Below are positions 9,298-30,871 of a stretch of DNA of 30,871 nt, in pieces (position 1 is the first letter of the stretch; each line of letters opens with the position of its first letter). The notes under the pieces were generated by a model, which saw only the letters and a list, made by a program, of their open reading frames with translations, searched no databases and was not told the origin of the DNA. The stretch lies in UHGV virus genome UHGV-0057520; one strand, 5' to 3'. This DNA comes from a virus. Both the position numbers and the translations under genes were made by a program.

Positions 9298-9482
9298 ACG
9301 CCACAATTCAAACGATACCAGAGCTTCTTATCCAGACACGAGGCAATCAGACCGAAGTGGCGAGGATGCTTTCCTGCGCAAGAGGAACAGTGCTCAAGTA
9401 CAACCGAGACAGCAAAGGTGAGCGTCACGTAATAGTTAACGGCGTCCTGATGGTCAAACAAGGCAAGAGGGGAAGACGATGA
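9294..9482 (+). CDS. NinH-like protein
   Basis: TIPELLIQTRGNQTEVARML.C.RGTV.KY parallels lambda NinH (TIPDMLVEAYGNQTEVARRLKCSRGTVRKY). Confidence 0.65.
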   Translation: MNATIQTIPELLIQTRGNQTEVARMLSCARGTVLKYNRDSKGERHVIVNGVLMVKQGKRGRR

Positions 9483-9997
9483 GCATAAGAGAACTAAACC
9501 TCACCAAAGAGCAGCACGAGTGGCTGAATGGCTGGCTTGAACTGTGGGGCGCATGGGTTTATTCAGGTCGTCTGGAAAAGCGCATGAGCAGCGTAATAGC
9601 GAAGTTCATGGAGAGCGTAGAGCCGGGAAGAGTTATGACAAGGCCAATGTGTAATGATGATGATGGAATGTTGATTTCTCAGGTCGTCGATTCCGTCATG
9701 TGCATTGACAAGAAAGCCTTTGGAATCCTCCTCAGCTACTACGCTCATGGTTCATCTAAGCGAGCAATTGCATCCTACTATCACGCGACTGCAAAGCCAC
9801 GCAAGATGTGTGGACGTGGTGGCGAGGGATGGAGAAAGCCTTCACTGGCAACCTGTAGAAACGAAATTGACGACATCCTGAAAGCGTCGTTATTTGTTTT
9901 GTACCAACCAATGCAAAATGCTTTCAAAATGCGTAAACGTGTTGAGAAAGTTAAGCATGTTGCTGTTAAAAGCCTTGACATGCAATTAGCCATTTAG
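9479..9997 (+). CDS. Q: late-gene antiterminator Q
   Basis: 172 aa, last gene before pR'; N-terminal WLELWGAWV motif resembles DLP12-type Q (QuuD) proteins; conserved position upstream of the lysis genes. Confidence 0.75.
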   Translation: MSIRELNLTKEQHEWLNGWLELWGAWVYSGRLEKRMSSVIAKFMESVEPGRVMTRPMCNDDDGMLISQVVDSVMCIDKKAFGILLSYYAHGSSKRAIASYYHATAKPRKMCGRGGEGWRKPSLATCRNEIDDILKASLFVLYQPMQNAFKMRKRVEKVKHVAVKSLDMQLAI

Positions 9998-10458: not shown

Positions 10459-10782
10459 ATGAAGATGCCAGAAAAACATGACCTGTTAGCCGCCATTCTC
10501 GCGGCAAAGGAACAAGGCATCGGGGCAATCCTTGCGTTTGCAATGGCGTACCTTCGCGGCAGATATAATGGCGGTGCGTTTACAAAAACAGTAATCGACG
10601 CAACGATGTGCGCCATTATCGCCTGGTTCATTCGTGACCTTCTCGACTTCGCCGGACTAAGTAGCAATCTCGCTTATATAACAAGCGTGTTCATCGGCTA
10701 CATCGGTACTGACTCGATTGGTTCGCTTATCAAACGCTTCGCTGCTAAAAAAGCCGGAGTAGAAGATGGTGGAAATCAATAA
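10459..10782 (+). CDS. S: class I holin S (dual-start holin/antiholin)
   Basis: 107 aa, essentially identical to my recollection of lambda S, including the MKM dual-start motif. Confidence 0.9.
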
Positions 10783-11242
10783 TCAACGTAAGGCGTTCCT
10801 CGATATGCTGGCGTGGTCAGAAGGAACAGATAACGGACGGCAGAAAACCAGAAATCACGGTTATGATGTTATTGTCGGTGGCGAGCTGTTCACTGATTAC
10901 TCCGATCACCCCCGCAAACTTGTCACGCTAAATCCGAAACTCAAATCAACAGCCGCCGGACGTTACCAGCTTCTTTCCCGTTGGTGGGATGCCTATCGTA
11001 AGCAGCTTGGCCTGAAAGACTTCTCTCCGAAAAGCCAGGACGCTGTGGCACTGCAACAGATTAAAGAGCGTGGCGCTTTACCGATGATTGATCGCGGTGA
11101 TATTCGTCAGGCTATCGACCGTTGCAGCAATATCTGGGCTTCACTGCCTGGCGCTGGTTATGGTCAGTTCGAGCATAAGGCTGACAGCCTGATTGCAAAA
11201 TTCAAAGAGGCTGGCGGAACGGTCAGAGAGATTGAGGTATGA
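10766..11242 (+). CDS. R: endolysin R (lytic transglycosylase)
   Basis: 158 aa, very close to lambda R as recalled; overlaps the holin 3' end as in lambda. Confidence 0.9.
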
Positions 11243-11676
11243 GCAGAGTCGCCGCGATTATTTATGCTCTGGTTATCTGCATCATCGTCTGCCTGTCATG
11301 GGCTGTTAATCATTACCGTGATAACGCCACCGCCTACAAAGAGCAGCGCGATAAAGCCATATCCATCATCGCTGATATGCAGAAGCGGCAACGTGATGTA
11401 GCAGAACTCGACGCCAGATACACAAAGGAGCTTGCTGATGCTAACGCGACTATCGAAAGTCTCCGTGCTGATGTTTCTGCTGGGCGTAAGCGCCTGCAAG
11501 TCGCCGCCACCTGTGCAAAGTCAACGACCGGAGCCAGCGGCATGGGCGATGGAGAAAGCCCAAGACTTACAGCAGATGCTGAACTCAATTATTACCGTCT
11601 CCGAAGTGGAATCGACAAGATAACCGCGCAGGTTAACTACCTGCAGGAGTACATCAGGACGCAATGCCTGAAATAA
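11239..11676 (+). CDS. Rz: spanin inner-membrane subunit Rz
   Basis: N-terminal [30 protein letters not shown] is near-identical to lambda Rz; coiled-coil periplasmic domain. Confidence 0.85.
11438..11623 (+). CDS. Rz1: spanin outer-membrane lipoprotein Rz1 (embedded in Rz, +1 frame)
   Basis: ATG at 11438 with GGAG upstream; signal peptide and lipobox (LLGVSAC) followed by a proline-rich segment. Confidence 0.7.
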
Positions 11677-26593: not shown

Positions 26594-27078
26594 CTATCTG
26601 ATATTACTGCTACTGTTGCATGTTACCGTGTTTCCAAATCCTGAATTGCAGTTTGTATATGTGTCAACGCGTGTTGGGTAAGGTTGAGTTATAACAGGCT
26701 GGCGCGCTTTTTGCTCGATCGCTTGCATTGTGTTTACAGCCTGATAATTCAATAAAGCCTGCTGGAATGCTTGGCTTTGTGCTATTTGTTGTGCTTGTTC
26801 TTGGCTTTGTAATTGAACATAAAGATTCTGAAGTTCAAGTCTTGCCTGTGTGTCACTTATCTTGCCTTCATCGACACCTTGCCCGAGCATCTTCGCAGCA
26901 AGGACATACAGCTTAGGTGTTGGTGCTGATGCCATGCGAGAGTCGTTCTTCAAGCTGGCATCAAGGCAATTAGCCATATCGCTAAGCTTTGGATAGCGTT
27001 GCTCGCAACTTGCCTGATAGTCGCTTACTTTTGCGCACCCAGCCAGCAGAAGCGGGATAATTAACAGTGATTTTTTCA
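26594..27078 (-). CDS. lipoprotein, about 161 aa mature-region Gln-rich (candidate exclusion or conversion factor)
   Basis: ORF track 26594..27130; likely start is the ATG at 27076-27078 giving MKKSLLIIPLLLAGC (signal peptide and lipobox); opposite strand to the flanking late genes; Gln-rich helical segment then Cys-containing C-terminus. Confidence 0.6.
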
Positions 27079-27113
27079 TATAATTAACTCTCCTTAGTTT
27101 TGCGCAGGATACC

Positions 27114-27479
27114 ATGAAAAAAGTTAACATTGGAAACGTACCAAAGATGCTCGTTCCGCTCTTTGAGAGCGGTACAATTGTGTTTTGTAGAGACTTTCCA
27201 GAATGGCAACGCCTGCATCAAAAACTTGGCGTTGACGTGCATGACTCGGACGCCAACGGAGCGTCTCATACAATGAGTAGCGAGAATGGTGTTTTGCATG
27301 TGATAGGCGTGTTCAATGGCAAACTATCTACTATTGCCCATGAGTGCGCTCACATGGCATTCGATATCTGCTCAAGGGTAGGTGTTGATGTTGAACCAGG
27401 AAGAGCCAACGAGACTTACTGCTACTTAATGAGCAGGCTTGTTGAGTTCTGCGAGCGACATATCAAAAAGCCGGAGTGA
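27114..27479 (+). CDS. small HExxH protein, possibly ImmA/IrrE-like (M78) zinc metallopeptidase
   Basis: 121 aa; HECAH motif followed about 15 residues later by RANETYCYLM, resembling the HExxH...E.EAN.FA signature of ImmA/IrrE domains as I recall them. Confidence 0.5.
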   Translation: MKKVNIGNVPKMLVPLFESGTIVFCRDFPEWQRLHQKLGVDVHDSDANGASHTMSSENGVLHVIGVFNGKLSTIAHECAHMAFDICSRVGVDVEPGRANETYCYLMSRLVEFCERHIKKPE

Positions 27480-27687: not shown

Positions 27688-27763
27688 ACACCCGTTATTG
27701 GGCGATTAAATATTGATCTCATTTTATAAGTAGTCAATATGGCCCAGGTAAATGCAAAAATTA

Positions 27764-27786
27764 ACCCACCTTCAGGTGGGTTTTTT
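27764..27786. terminator. bidirectional rho-independent terminator at the 3' end of mnt
   Basis: ACCCACC-TTCA-GGTGGGT hairpin flanked by AAAAATT upstream and TTTTTTG downstream. Confidence 0.7.
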
Positions 27787-28170: not shown

Positions 28171-30162
28171 ATGACAGACATTACAGCCAATGTTGTAGTG
28201 AGCATGCCTTCGCAACTCTTCACTATGGCGCGTTCTTTTAAAGCCGTAGCTAATGGCAAAATTTATATCGGTAAAATTGACACTGACCCGGTAAATCCTG
28301 ATAACCAGATTCAGGTCTATGTTGAGAACGAAGATGGTTCTCACGTTCCTGTTGCACAGCCAATCGTCATCAATGCCGCTGGGTATCCAGTATATAACGG
28401 ACAGATTGCCAAATTCGTAACTGTGCAAGGCCATTCTATGGCTGTTTATGATGCATGTGGTGCGCAGCAGTTCTATTTTCCAAATGTGCTGAAGTATGAC
28501 CCGGATCAGTTAAGGCAGGAGTTAGCAAGTTCAGGTGATGATCTTGGAGATGCATTAATAGCAGTAAAACAACCATTCACCTTGTCAATAAGAAGGACGC
28601 AGCATCAAAAAAATGCCGAGCACATTAGTGTTAGTGATTTTGGTGCAAAAGGAGACGGCATAACAGATGATACTGTAGCAATTCAAAATGCTATTAATGC
28701 AGTACCAGAAGGGGCTATACTTGGATTTTATGGTGGTGAATTTGTTTTTGATAAGGTTGAATTGCTTAAGCCAATAACATTGGTTGGTGATGCAACGTTA
28801 ATTCACAACGGATTTAGAATAAAATCTAGCAGAATACGATCACTTTTATCTGGTGTTCAGAAATGCAAGGATTACTCCGAGTCTTCAAGAGCATTTTATT
28901 GCTATGCAAATGAAGACCAAAGAGATTATGACGATATTCAGATTTTGTTTAATAGATTTGAAGGTTTCTTTTACTCTACGACATTTGTTGCAAAAAACTA
29001 TTATTTGGAGAATGACCCTAATTCAAGAACTGTCAAAAATACAAAAGTAATAGGATGTACATCAGTTGCTCCTGATTCTGTAAATGCCGGTCATTTTCAA
29101 CATATAGGCGTTACAAATGCTGAAACATCACATAACTCAACTTATGGCGGACAAAATGCAACATCATACAACTTCATTAACCAGAATGGATTTGTAAGGA
29201 TTATAGGAAATTATGACCATAACAATAACTATGGTTCATGTGAGCTTGAGAACTCAATGGTGAGTAACTCAGTCATATCATGTAATACGTTTTCGTCATA
29301 TTTATGGGTGGATGATACAAGCAATGTTACTATTTCTGGAAATACAGTTTCATCAAGGATCAAAGTAACATCGCAAACTGACGATGTTCATAATATAACC
29401 ATATCAGCAAATACCACAAAACGGATTACTATAGAGCAATTTGGAGAATCTCCGACAGGTCTGGTATATGGTGCATTAATTTCCTGTAACACTATTACTG
29501 GCGACAGTGATGGAAGTTCAGACATTTTATGTACGTCACTTGTTACAGGTGAAATTTCATCAAATTATTGTCATGGATCAGAAAAAAATATATCAATTGT
29601 CCGCCTGGATTCTTCTGATATAACTGTTAGAAACAATAAAGGAAACAAAGGATTACTTACAATAAGTAACGATGGTGGGAGGATAATTGAATATGGCAAT
29701 GATTCTATGGTTCTGTCTGGAAGCATAGATAGCAGACATATACATAATTTATTACAACCAGACACATCGTATTTAGATCTACCGGGGAAATATCTGCACG
29801 GAACTAAATATACTGGCAGTATCCCCCCCGGTTCCACAGGAACTGTATCACTTCAAATACCATCAGGGGCAAGCCTTGTTTTCAGGGGTGTTTCTATATG
29901 GGTTCTAATTAGAGATGTTAGCAATAACAATATATCGTCATTCAGAATTGATGGTTCATATAGAGTTGTTGGTGGAAGTGTTGGTCTTAGTTTTGCTGAT
30001 GCTTATTCGAAACTCGGGGTGGATGCAAACTCTATAACAGTGTCAAACAATAACAGCACTTCTGACAATATCAGCATAGCAATTAAAAACACAGATTCAT
30101 CAAAAACCCTTCAGGTTACTGTTATGCCGGAGGTTTCAAGCAGGTTAGGTATTGAGGAATAG
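28171..30162 (+). CDS. tailspike: P22-type head-binding N-terminal domain fused to a different, AT-rich receptor-binding domain
   Basis: 663 aa; first ~110 residues ([11 protein letters not shown]...[20 protein letters not shown]...VLKYDPDQ) match P22 gp9; the rest carries beta-helix/pectate-lyase-like signatures ([18 protein letters not shown]) and is Asn/Ser-rich. Confidence 0.85.
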
Positions 30163-30190
30163 CATCATATATAATTATTTTAATGTTAAT

Positions 30191-30217
30191 GCCGCCTTCT
30201 TGTTGGCGGCTTATTTG
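30191..30217 (+). terminator. rho-independent terminator after the tailspike
   Basis: GCCGCC-TTCTTGTT-GGCGGC hairpin followed by TTATTTGT. Confidence 0.6.
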
Positions 30218-30238
30218 TGAAAATCGAATGAGTTATTT

Positions 30239-30541
30239 ATGATGAATATAGAAGTTGATATAACACCAATTCTTCACGCACTTTGCGCTGTTGTCGCACA
30301 AGTTCTGGTTGGTCTTTTTACCGGAAACTGGGCTTACGGTGCGATAGCCGGTTGTACGTTCTTCATTGCGCGTGAACACACCCAGGCAGAATATCGCTGG
30401 ATTGAAATGTTCGGGCATGGCAAGCGTATGAATATGCCGTGGTGGGGTGGTTTTGATCCACGCGTGTGGGATGTAGGAAGCCTTATGGATTTTTCTTTCC
30501 CAATTATCGGATGCTTATTGGTATGGATTCTTGCATCGTAG
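30239..30541 (+). CDS. small membrane protein, 100 aa, downstream of the tailspike
   Basis: Two hydrophobic helices flank a Trp/His-rich loop (EYRWIEMFGHGKRMNMPWWGGFDPRVWD); no family recognised. Confidence 0.45.
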   Translation: MMNIEVDITPILHALCAVVAQVLVGLFTGNWAYGAIAGCTFFIAREHTQAEYRWIEMFGHGKRMNMPWWGGFDPRVWDVGSLMDFSFPIIGCLLVWILAS

Positions 30542-30871
30542 CGAACACATAATTACCGATGAAACAAAACTGAGACACACAAAGCTTTGCACTGGATTGC
30601 AAGGCTTTGTGATCTTCGATAGTGGTTAAGGTGGATCACTCCACCTTTTCATCAAGCCAATCCGCCCACCACTGCATCATTTCTCTGCGCTTAACGTAGT
30701 TGATGCATCACTATCACCCTGTAATGGCTTATTACTGGTTTGCAGACAGGTAGGCATGAACATATGCCTGCGCATGAAGATGGAACTAGTCCGGATGCGA
30801 TATTTTTGGTGATCACGTACATCATCAACGAAGTGCGTTATGGTGAGTTTGATGACTACCCGCTGAAGTGA

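What the first reader, a model, noticed from the sequence alone, without database searches (positions are those of the whole stretch)
30239..30541. Small membrane protein immediately after the tailspike terminator
A 100-aa protein with two hydrophobic helices and a Trp/His-rich loop follows the tailspike terminator. The post-tailspike position in P22-like prophages often carries lysogenic conversion genes; the product does not resemble the O-antigen glucosylation proteins I can recall.
Basis: inference. Interest (0 to 1): 0.4.

Follow-up and report, generated by a model that had tools for sequence, protein, structure and literature searches.

The report
Conserved phage membrane protein after tailspike
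This is a real, strongly conserved 100-residue membrane protein of unknown function that many kinds of phage carry directly behind their receptor-binding (tailspike or tail-fibre) gene; here it looks like the last gene of the late operon, not an O-antigen conversion gene.

Summary
The ORF at 30239-30541 (+) is real. It follows a terminator hairpin after the tailspike gene and is under purifying selection (median dN/dS 0.13). AlphaFold2 models three helices around a Trp-rich, charged loop (pLDDT 88.5). It belongs to an uncharacterised family (PHROG 1443, sometimes named "Ybl63"). It has no significant match in Pfam, NCBIfam, PADLOC or PDB, no fold match, and no literature.

The main finding is context. 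In P22-like, lambda-like and P2-like prophages, and in 78 of 80 environmental viral contigs, the gene sits on the same strand directly behind the receptor-binding-protein gene. It is often translationally coupled to that gene. Homology between phages begins at codon 7, so each upstream module supplies its own start.

Intact copies also occur in an Aeromonas jumbo phage and in non-phage chromosomal sites in Aeromonas. About 35% of complete E. coli genomes carry it.

In this window there is no room for a promoter between the terminator and the start codon. The prophage encodes a Q-like antiterminator and a complete lysis cassette. No partner genes follow; host dacD is next.

I read it as a late-expressed accessory inner-membrane protein. 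Lysogenic conversion is not supported, but not excluded. The biochemical role remains unknown.

The parts
9479..9997 (+). Q-like late antiterminator of the prophage. It is the basis for expecting read-through of the tailspike terminator during lytic growth.
   Evidence: PHROG 943, anti-termination protein Q-like, E = 3.6e-93.
10459..11676 (+). The prophage's own complete lysis cassette: holin 10459-10782, endolysin 10766-11242, Rz-like spanin 11239-11676. Context only; it shows the small gene is not needed as the holin.
   Evidence: PHROG 126 holin/antiholin E = 1e-40; PHROG 90 endolysin E = 1.6e-63; PHROG 13 Rz-like spanin E = 3.4e-71.
28171..30162 (+). Tailspike (receptor-binding protein) gene with a P22-type N-terminal head-binding domain. 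The small gene is attached to its 3' end.
   Evidence: PHROG 20231 E = 3.3e-255 and many tailspike families. Annotated as phage tailspike protein in the identical E. coli record.
30191..30219 (+). Intrinsic-terminator-like hairpin (GCCGCC-8 nt-GGCGGC) plus a T-rich tail, between the tailspike gene and the small gene.
   Evidence: Terminator scan. The RNA fold of 30160-30245 has z = -3.69.
30239..30541 (+). Small membrane protein gene of the PHROG 1443 / 'Ybl63' family. 100 aa from 30239, or 99 aa from 30242. The only Shine-Dalgarno-like element is a weak GAG at 30230-30232.
30257..30541 (+). Conserved core of the gene. Homology with copies behind other tailspikes and tail fibres starts exactly at codon D7. 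The first six codons (MMNIEV) belong to the tailspike-side module.
   Evidence: Junction alignment A6. The lambdoid prophage at the same locus matches from window 30257 onward (H4).
30578..30647 (+). Two hairpins after the stop codon: a 14-bp stem at 30578-30611, and an 8-bp stem at 30628-30647 followed by U-rich sequence. This is probably the end of the late transcription unit. It travels with the gene.
   Evidence: Fold of 30536-30700, z = -3.57. It lies inside the block 30100-30696 shared at 98.8% with a P22-like prophage at a different locus, argW/intS (H7).

Best explanation
The ORF encodes a conserved three-helix inner-membrane protein that is the terminal gene of the tailspike / receptor-binding-protein (RBP) transcription unit.

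**Expression in this prophage.** It has no promoter of its own and lies behind the tailspike terminator. It is therefore most likely made during lytic growth, when Q-modified RNA polymerase reads through that terminator. Transcription probably ends at the hairpins at 30578-30647.

**Likely action.** The protein inserts into the cytoplasmic membrane. Its invariant polar and aromatic loop (R45-E46, Q49-A50-E51, R63, W77, D84), together with H13 in helix 1, probably faces the cytoplasm. I infer that it binds or acts on a conserved component of the proteobacterial envelope in the infected cell.

**Favoured specific role (inferred, about 25-30%).** A non-essential factor at the exit stage, for example modulating lysis timing alongside the phage's own holin, endolysin and spanin. 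A late block of further DNA entry is nearly as likely.

**What it is not.** It is not a glycan-modifying conversion enzyme.

**Why it is so widespread.** It flanks the most frequently exchanged phage gene, the RBP gene, and moves with RBP cassettes.

**Shown versus inferred.**
- Shown: it is a coding gene under purifying selection; the fold model; the conserved motif; RBP adjacency in three phage morphotypes; the junction at codon 7; no promoter-sized gap; the Q gene and lysis cassette are present.
- Inferred: late expression, membrane topology, existence of a host target, and any specific role.
For: **RBP adjacency, same strand.**
- P22-like: this window and L003; JEP4, where the gene overlaps the tailspike stop as ATGA.
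- Lambda-like: L002; phage 21; Citrobacter, behind a pectate-lyase tailspike; Comamonas, behind gpJ and a 72-aa ORF.
- P2-like: Leclercia, 0-nt gap behind a 939-aa fibre.
- 87 of 88 Escherichia-type loci have a same-strand upstream ORF ending within 500 nt, and 34 of these overlap it or lie within 10 nt. The same holds for 78 of 80 distant IMG/VR loci, with 45 overlapping or within 10 nt.
- The upstream proteins are dominated by tailspike and tail-fibre PHROGs.

**Mosaic junction.** Homology begins at codon D7, and each upstream module brings its own ribosome-binding site and start codon.

**Expression signals.** No usable promoter. Terminator upstream. Q-like antiterminator in the same prophage.

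**Not confined to prophages.** An intact copy in Aeromonas jumbo phage AVP1, and a frameshifted remnant behind the tail fibre of coliphage HC6.

**Constraint and structure.** dN/dS 0.13. AlphaFold2 pLDDT 88.5 with three helices. Family-wide invariant residues H13, R45, E46, Q49, A50, E51, R63, W77, P88. The loop carries 5.45 Lys+Arg per sequence, against 0.07-0.53 in the other extramembrane segments.
Against: - There are no expression data of any kind. Late expression rests on the absence of a promoter and the presence of a terminator and a Q gene.
- A gene in the late operon can still be expressed in lysogens; from my own knowledge, cor of phi80/N15 behaves this way.
- The gene is kept intact in a degraded Rac remnant of E. 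coli B. It is present in 1904 of 5426 complete E. coli genomes, with a median of 2 copies. Both facts would fit a benefit to the host.
- Strong conservation of a polar motif across alpha-, beta- and gamma-proteobacteria, and core-genome copies in Aeromonas, are unusual for holin-like or exclusion proteins. They suggest an enzyme-like or regulator-like activity that I cannot name.
- The topology call is ambiguous. The phage 21 annotators report a different prediction, 2 TMDs with N-in and C-in.
Confidence: 0.5

Rival explanations
1. It is a prophage-expressed moron: a lysogenic-conversion or superinfection-exclusion protein made in the lysogen. It would alter the envelope or block DNA entry of incoming phages.
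For: - The position after the RBP gene is where gtrABC sits in P22-like phages (PMC2629481). From my own knowledge, oac, cor and P2 Z/fun occupy comparable positions.
- The gene has its own downstream hairpins and is insulated upstream by a terminator.
- It is very common in E. coli genomes and is kept intact in a cryptic Rac remnant.
- It is under purifying selection.
- 33 of 79 IMG/VR prophage contigs end within 400 nt of it, so it is often the last prophage gene.
Against: - There is no promoter-sized space and no credible promoter.
- In most phages it is translationally coupled to, or within 40 nt of, a late structural gene whose 3' end differs from phage to phage. A conserved internal promoter is therefore unlikely.
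- There is no match to any defence model in PADLOC.
- Members occur in a jumbo Aeromonas phage, and in environmental contigs between structural and lysis genes.
- The protein is conserved while the adjacent RBPs differ, so it cannot be receptor-specific.
- No Gtr- or Oac-like partner gene is present.
Confidence: 0.2
2. It is a holin, or a partner of a holin (antiholin or second holin component): a small late membrane protein that times or executes permeabilisation of the inner membrane.
For: - About 100 aa with three transmembrane helices, the same size and helix count as class I holins.
- It is the last late gene behind the RBP gene. From my own knowledge, T7 gp17.5 and T4 t sit in the same place.
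- In some environmental contigs it directly abuts lysis genes. In L227 it overlaps a 72-aa two-TMD ORF that is followed by an endolysin. In L160 it is followed by an endolysin and a GTA_holin_3TM holin.
Against: - This prophage, phage 21 and the contigs examined all have separate holin candidates.
- There is no homology to the prophage's own holin (hhalign probability 1.3%) or to a set of membrane proteins that includes the Pfam-confirmed GTA_holin_3TM protein of L160 (16%).
- The C-terminal tail is nearly absent and weakly charged: 3.5 residues and 0.53 Lys+Arg on average. Holins typically have a charged C-terminal tail.
- Deep conservation of a polar loop, and core chromosomal copies in Aeromonas, are not holin-like.
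- Lysis genes are the immediate downstream neighbour in only a minority of loci. Others have head scaffold, DGR Avd or tail genes.
Confidence: 0.15
3. It is mainly a hitch-hiker: a host-derived small membrane protein gene that persists because it flanks RBP cassettes and offers a conserved recombination anchor. It would have little or no phage-specific function.
For: - The homology block starts exactly at codon 7 behind unrelated RBP 3' ends.
- A decayed remnant was carried into phage HC6 behind its tail fibre.
- The same gene plus about 155 nt occurs behind different RBPs, in different prophage types and at different integration sites.
- Chromosomal homologues exist.
Against: - dN/dS of 0.13 among phage-borne alleles, together with retention of every family-wide invariant residue, shows that the protein itself is under selection in phages.
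- Adjacency to the RBP gene is kept down to 35-45% identity in unrelated environmental phages. A purely neutral anchor would not persist that far.
Confidence: 0.1

Closest known systems
gtrABC (P22, epsilon34) and oac (Sf6): O-antigen conversion genes located after the tailspike gene
   Same: They occupy the same slot, between the tailspike gene and the attachment-site end of P22-like prophages. They encode membrane proteins.
   Different: - There is no sequence similarity: no significant Pfam or NCBIfam match.
- It is a single 100-aa, three-helix protein with no partner genes.
- It is co-directional with, and in other phages translationally coupled to, the tailspike gene.
- No promoter is evident.
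- It is conserved while tailspike specificity varies.
Cor (phi80, N15, T1) and Llp (T5): envelope proteins encoded next to receptor-binding genes that block the phage's own receptor
   Same: A small envelope protein gene physically linked to the RBP or tail-fibre genes, at the end of the tail region.
   Different: - From my own knowledge, Cor and Llp are outer-membrane lipoproteins specific for FhuA. This protein has no lipobox and is a polytopic inner-membrane protein.
- There is no homology.
- It is not matched to any particular RBP.
T7 gp17.5 and T4 t holins; class I holins such as lambda S and P22 gp13
   Same: A small late membrane protein. It is the last gene behind the tail-fibre gene (T7, T4), with three helices and about 100 aa (class I).
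   Different: - No homology to holin profiles.
- No charged C-terminal tail.
- It coexists with a complete lysis cassette.
- It has a deeply conserved polar motif and chromosomal orthologues.
Inner-membrane superinfection-exclusion proteins: P22 SieA, T4 Imm, HK97 gp15
   Same: Small, phage-encoded, polytopic inner-membrane proteins with no enzymatic domains. They are encoded within or next to tail or late regions as accessory genes.
   Different: - There is no sequence relationship.
- Those proteins are expressed from prophage or early promoters and have narrow distributions.
- This family spans alpha-, beta- and gamma-proteobacteria and Desulfovibrio, and here it lacks a promoter.

Membership tests
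PHROG 1443 / 'Ybl63' family of small phage membrane proteins (uncharacterised) | Full-length match to the family profile | tested here: met
   E = 2.7e-55, residues 6-99 on profile positions 1-94 of 97. 558 homologous clusters. Some source records name members Ybl63.
PHROG 1443 / 'Ybl63' family of small phage membrane proteins (uncharacterised) | About 95-105 aa, stand-alone, three hydrophobic helices | tested here: met
   AlphaFold2 helices at 9-28, 31-57 and 79-99, pLDDT 88.5. The 150 best of 427 representative hits are 57-146 aa, with no fusions.
PHROG 1443 / 'Ybl63' family of small phage membrane proteins (uncharacterised) | Invariant motif H13 ... R45-E46-x-x-Q49-A50-E51 ... R63 ... W77 ... 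D84 ... P88 | tested here: met
   All are present in the window protein. Conservation across 262 family members is 88-99%.
PHROG 1443 / 'Ybl63' family of small phage membrane proteins (uncharacterised) | Location directly downstream of, and co-oriented with, the receptor-binding-protein gene | tested here: met
   In the window it lies 76 nt after the tailspike stop codon. The same arrangement is seen in P22-like, lambda-like and P2-like prophages and in environmental viral contigs.
GtrA/GtrB/Gtr(type) O-antigen glucosylation system | Homology to the GtrA-like flippase, GtrB glycosyltransferase or a serotype-specific Gtr | tested here: not met
   No Pfam or NCBIfam family reaches its threshold. 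The best Pfam hit is PhoR at E = 0.07, 14 bits against a 27.1-bit cut-off.
GtrA/GtrB/Gtr(type) O-antigen glucosylation system | Three-gene cluster adjacent to the tailspike gene or attachment site | tested here: not met
   In the identical E. coli record, the gene is followed by an unannotated 674-nt stretch and then host dacD. That stretch corresponds to a UmuD-like pseudogene fragment in a related record.
Holins (class I type) | Small protein with three transmembrane domains | tested here: met
Holins (class I type) | Encoded next to an endolysin gene | tested here: not met
   The endolysin is 19 kb upstream, alongside its own holin. Lysis genes lie downstream of family members in only a minority of environmental contigs, and where examined those contigs have other holin candidates.
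Holins (class I type) | Highly charged hydrophilic C-terminal tail | tested here: not met
   The family C-tail averages 3.5 residues with 0.53 Lys+Arg. The window protein ends ...WILAS.
Holins (class I type) | Sequence or profile relationship to a known holin family | tested here: not met
   No Pfam or PHROG lysis family matched. hhalign probability is 1.3% against the prophage's own holin, and 16% against a set that includes a GTA_holin_3TM protein.
Holins (class I type) | Causes membrane permeabilisation or lysis when expressed | not testable with these tools
   This needs an experiment.
Moron (independently expressed insert in a phage operon) | Own promoter upstream | tested here: not met
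   There are 19 nt between the terminator tail and the ATG. The only promoter-like hit overlaps the start codon.
Moron (independently expressed insert in a phage operon) | Own terminator downstream | tested here: met
   Hairpins at 30578-30611 and 30628-30647 travel with the gene.
Moron (independently expressed insert in a phage operon) | Present in some and absent from other related phages | tested here: met
   Only 66 of 50,697 phage records carry a match. In E. coli genomes, 1904 of 5426 do.
Known anti-phage defence / superinfection-exclusion proteins | Match to a described defence protein model | tested here: not met
   PADLOC-DB returned 0 families at E <= 10.
Known anti-phage defence / superinfection-exclusion proteins | Confers resistance to infection when expressed | not testable with these tools
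   This needs plating assays.

The most novel reading that the evidence does not exclude
The family could be a previously unrecognised, host-derived class of phage late membrane factor with an enzyme-like or regulator-like invariant site (His in helix 1; Arg-Glu, Gln-Ala-Glu, Arg and Asp around the loop). Phages of all three tail morphologies would carry it as part of the receptor-binding-protein cassette, to act on one conserved inner-membrane process of Proteobacteria. Candidate roles are a generic block of DNA entry or a new lysis-control step. About a third of complete E. coli genomes would then carry it as a functional prophage gene.
Probability: 0.22. Interest if true: 0.6.

Novelty: new member of a known kind. 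Interest (0 to 1): 0.35.

Why it matters
If the inferred role is right, this is one more accessory small membrane protein of temperate phages, and the window copy is ordinary. Identical copies are already in public E. coli genomes, annotated as hypothetical proteins.

The family as a whole is more interesting, for four reasons:
- It has no Pfam model and no literature.
- It occurs in about 35% of complete E. coli genomes, often in several copies.
- It keeps an invariant polar motif across alpha-, beta- and gamma-proteobacteria.
- It is tied to the receptor-binding-protein gene in podo-, sipho- and myovirus-type prophages.

That linkage makes the gene a useful landmark for the downstream boundary of swapped host-range cassettes. 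It also gives a compact, testable candidate for an unknown late or exclusion function.

Tried and rejected
**Homology and fold searches that found nothing**
- Pfam, NCBIfam and PADLOC scans of the protein: nothing significant.
- PDB profile search by sequence: nothing.
- Exhaustive profile search of 1.84 billion representatives, looking for fusions to informative domains: all listed hits are stand-alone proteins of 57-146 aa.
- A second homologue search with a distant-member profile, looking for source annotations: every named hit is 'hypothetical' or 'uncharacterised'.

**Literature**
- Searches for Ybl63, phrog_1443 and several descriptions of the gene's context found nothing relevant.

**Holin hypothesis**
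- I tested downstream neighbours for endolysins. They are present in only a minority of loci, and the two lysis-adjacent contigs examined have their own holin candidates.
- Profile-profile comparison with two holin types was negative.

**LPS link through the Aeromonas neighbourhood**
- The convergent 286-aa neighbour is a genuine RIO-type kinase, not a Kdo kinase. I dropped the idea.

**Resident-remnant idea**
- I considered that the gene might be a leftover at the dacD locus rather than part of this prophage. I rejected this because the same tailspike-terminator-gene block occurs in a P22-like prophage at argW/intS.

**Own promoter**
- The scan found only one weak match, and it overlaps the start codon.

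Full report
**1.

The ORF at 30239-30541 (+) encodes 100 aa. RefSeq annotates the identical sequence in E. coli Ecol_881 from the second ATG at 30242, as WP_039052559.1, a hypothetical protein.

The preceding 663-aa ORF (28171-30162) is a P22-type tailspike. Between the two genes is a G+C-rich hairpin at 30191-30210 with a T-rich tail. The terminator scan picks it up, and the region folds better than every shuffle.

The window as a whole is a P22-like prophage. It has a Q-like antiterminator (9479-9997), a holin, an endolysin, an Rz-like spanin (10459-11676), DNA-transfer (ejection) proteins and an Arc/Mnt-like repressor.

The gene is coding. Fifty distinct Escherichia alleles give a median dN/dS of 0.135 at a median dS of 0.36.

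AlphaFold2, run with a 30-sequence alignment, gives a confident model (pLDDT 88.5). It has three helices at 9-28, 31-57 and 79-99. The loop at 45-78 has four Trp and two His.

**2. What family it belongs to**

Pfam, NCBIfam and PADLOC return nothing significant. The protein matches PHROG 1443, function unknown, at E = 2.7e-55.

The homologue searches give:
- 558 clusters with the single sequence;
- 1118 clusters with a distant-member profile;
- 427 representatives in an exhaustive search of 1.84 billion proteins.

None of the homologues listed in the two cluster searches has a precomputed Pfam domain. The 150 best hits of the exhaustive search are 57-146 aa, so none is a fusion. Every name that a source gives is "hypothetical", "uncharacterised" or occasionally "Ybl63".

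No paper in the held library mentions the family. There is no sequence relative in the PDB and no meaningful fold match.

The invariant positions across 262 members are H13 in helix 1, R45-E46 and Q49-A50-E51 at the end of helix 2, R63, W77, D84 and P88.

The loop carries 5.45 Lys+Arg per sequence. The N-tail carries 0.29, the hairpin turn 0.07 and the C-tail 0.53. By the positive-inside rule the loop should face the cytoplasm. The annotators of phage 21 report a different TMHMM prediction, so topology is inferred and not settled.

**3. The informative result is the genomic context**

The gene always follows the receptor-binding-protein (RBP) gene on the same strand.

| Phage type | Example | Arrangement |
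|---|---|---|
| P22-like | this window; a prophage at argW/intS | 76-nt spacer containing the terminator |
| P22-like | phage JEP4 | overlaps the tailspike stop (ATGA) |
| Lambda-like | prophage at dacD | 25 nt after a tail-fibre gene |
| Lambda-like | phage 21 | after the side tail fibre and a 92-aa ORF |
| Lambda-like | Citrobacter prophage | 14 nt after a pectate-lyase tailspike |
| Lambda-like | Comamonas prophage | after gpJ and a 72-aa ORF |
| P2-like | Leclercia prophage | 0 nt after a 939-aa fibre with an S74 chaperone domain |

Across 88 Escherichia-type loci, 87 have a same-strand upstream ORF ending within 500 nt. Of these, 34 overlap it or lie within 10 nt.

Among 80 environmental IMG/VR contigs carrying members only 35-55% identical to one another, 78 have such an ORF, and 45 overlap it or lie within 10 nt. 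Those upstream proteins are dominated by tailspike and tail-fibre PHROGs.

What lies downstream is variable: endolysins, a DGR Avd gene, head scaffold, minor tail proteins and unknowns.

An alignment of six junction types shows that homology begins exactly at the GAT codon for D7. Each upstream module supplies its own ribosome-binding site and start codon. In the window that module contributes six extra N-terminal codons and only a weak GAG Shine-Dalgarno element.

**4. It belongs to this phage**

The block 30100-30696 covers the tailspike 3' end, the terminator, the gene and the two downstream hairpins. It recurs at 98.8% identity in a P22-like prophage integrated at argW (H7).

The block 30257-30871 recurs in a lambdoid prophage at the same dacD locus (H4).

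Beyond the window there is no partner gene. There is only an unannotated 674-nt stretch that includes a UmuD/HumD-like pseudogene fragment, and then host dacD-sbmC.

**5. It is neither restricted to prophages nor to phages**

- An intact 87-aa member sits in the 234-kb Aeromonas phage AVP1.
- Coliphage HC6, isolated from sewage, carries a frameshifted remnant immediately behind its 859-aa tail fibre. This indicates that the gene travels with RBP modules.
- Five Aeromonas genomes carry a syntenic chromosomal copy between pirin and a RIO-type kinase, with no phage genes nearby.
- In three or four of the other GTDB loci the upstream ORF is an NAD-dependent DNA ligase rather than a phage gene.
- Among complete E. 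coli genomes, 1904 of 5426 have a megablast-level copy, with a median of two and up to seven copies. This includes an intact copy in the degraded Rac remnant of E. coli B.

**6. How it most likely works**

Only 19 nt separate the terminator's T-tract from the ATG. The sole promoter-like match places its -10 hexamer over the start codon. In most phages there is no spacer at all. Expression must therefore come from the RBP transcript.

In this prophage that means Q-antiterminated late transcription reading through the tailspike terminator (the Q gene is shown). The hairpins at 30578-30647 probably end that unit.

I conclude that the protein is a late-made accessory inner-membrane protein (confidence about 0.5). 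The invariant polar loop and the chromosomal orthologues suggest that it recognises a conserved envelope component.

Which component, and to what end, I cannot determine. My favoured guess is an exit or lysis-timing role. A late block of DNA entry is close behind.

**7. Rivals**

- **Prophage-expressed conversion or exclusion protein (0.2).** This fits the location, the gene's abundance and its retention in cryptic prophages. It lacks a promoter and any defence-model match, and it conflicts with the translational coupling to late genes.
- **Holin or holin partner (0.15).** This fits the size, the helix count and the position. Against it: the prophage has its own lysis cassette; the two lysis-adjacent contigs I examined have other holin candidates; there is no charged C-tail; and profile comparisons with two holin types are negative.
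- **Pure hitch-hiker or recombination anchor (0.1).** This explains the spread, but not the purifying selection or the deep synteny.
- **O-antigen glucosylation.** This is excluded as far as homology and gene content can exclude it.

**8. Verdict**

The conversion reading is not supported, although the negative statement that the protein is not Gtr-like is correct.

The window copy is an ordinary member of an already catalogued but wholly uncharacterised family. The family's consistent linkage to receptor-binding genes across phage morphotypes is the point worth following up experimentally.

Noticed in passing
window 26594-27130 (-): A lipoprotein-like ORF (161-178 aa, MKKSLLIIPLLLAGC lipobox), PHROG 6067, function unknown. 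It lies between the last DNA-transfer gene and the Arc/Mnt-like gene, in the 'ant moron' slot where P22 carries sieA. It is a candidate exclusion or conversion lipoprotein.
   Followed up: no
window 27114-27479 (+): A 121-aa ORF (PHROG 1365, function unknown) with an HECAH (HExxH-like) motif. Its start overlaps the start of the lipoprotein ORF on the other strand.
   Followed up: no
window about 30687-30871 (+): A C-terminal fragment of an S24 / UmuD (HumD)-like peptidase, annotated as a frameshifted pseudogene in a related record. It is shared with lambdoid prophages at the dacD locus. The 772-bp query that included it matched 3620 of 5426 E. coli genomes, against 1904 for the small gene alone.
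   Followed up: partly
window 30578-30611 and 30628-30647: Two stable hairpins just after the small gene (a 14-bp stem and an 8-bp stem). They move with the gene between prophages. The simple terminator scan did not call them.
   Followed up: partly
L244 3965-4120 (Escherichia phage HC6): An unannotated, frameshifted remnant of the family (…RRRANIPWWGGFDWRAWDLPSLLD) directly after the 859-aa tail-fibre gene. It looks like a footprint of RBP-module exchange with prophages.
   Followed up: partly
L245 4998-5291 (E. coli B strain C3029, Rac remnant): An intact family member (WP_000355360.1) lies between ORFs annotated as hypothetical and a truncated tfa, next to pinR.
   Followed up: no
window 28650-30150: The receptor-binding part of the tailspike gene is only 33-39% G+C, against 42-47% for the head-binding N-terminus and the flanks. 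This is typical of a recently swapped specificity module.
   Followed up: no
L187, L196, L197, L212, L220, L236 (IMG/VR contigs), ORF immediately downstream of the family member: A conserved 160-166-aa membrane protein (PHROG 1544, function unknown) overlaps the stop codon of the family member in six contigs. By eye it resembles GTA-type 3TM holins, but Pfam did not confirm this.
   Followed up: partly
window 27763-27782: A perfect 8-bp hairpin flanked by T-runs on both strands. It looks like a bidirectional terminator and lies at the 3' end of the Arc-like gene, between it and the upstream small ORFs.
   Followed up: no
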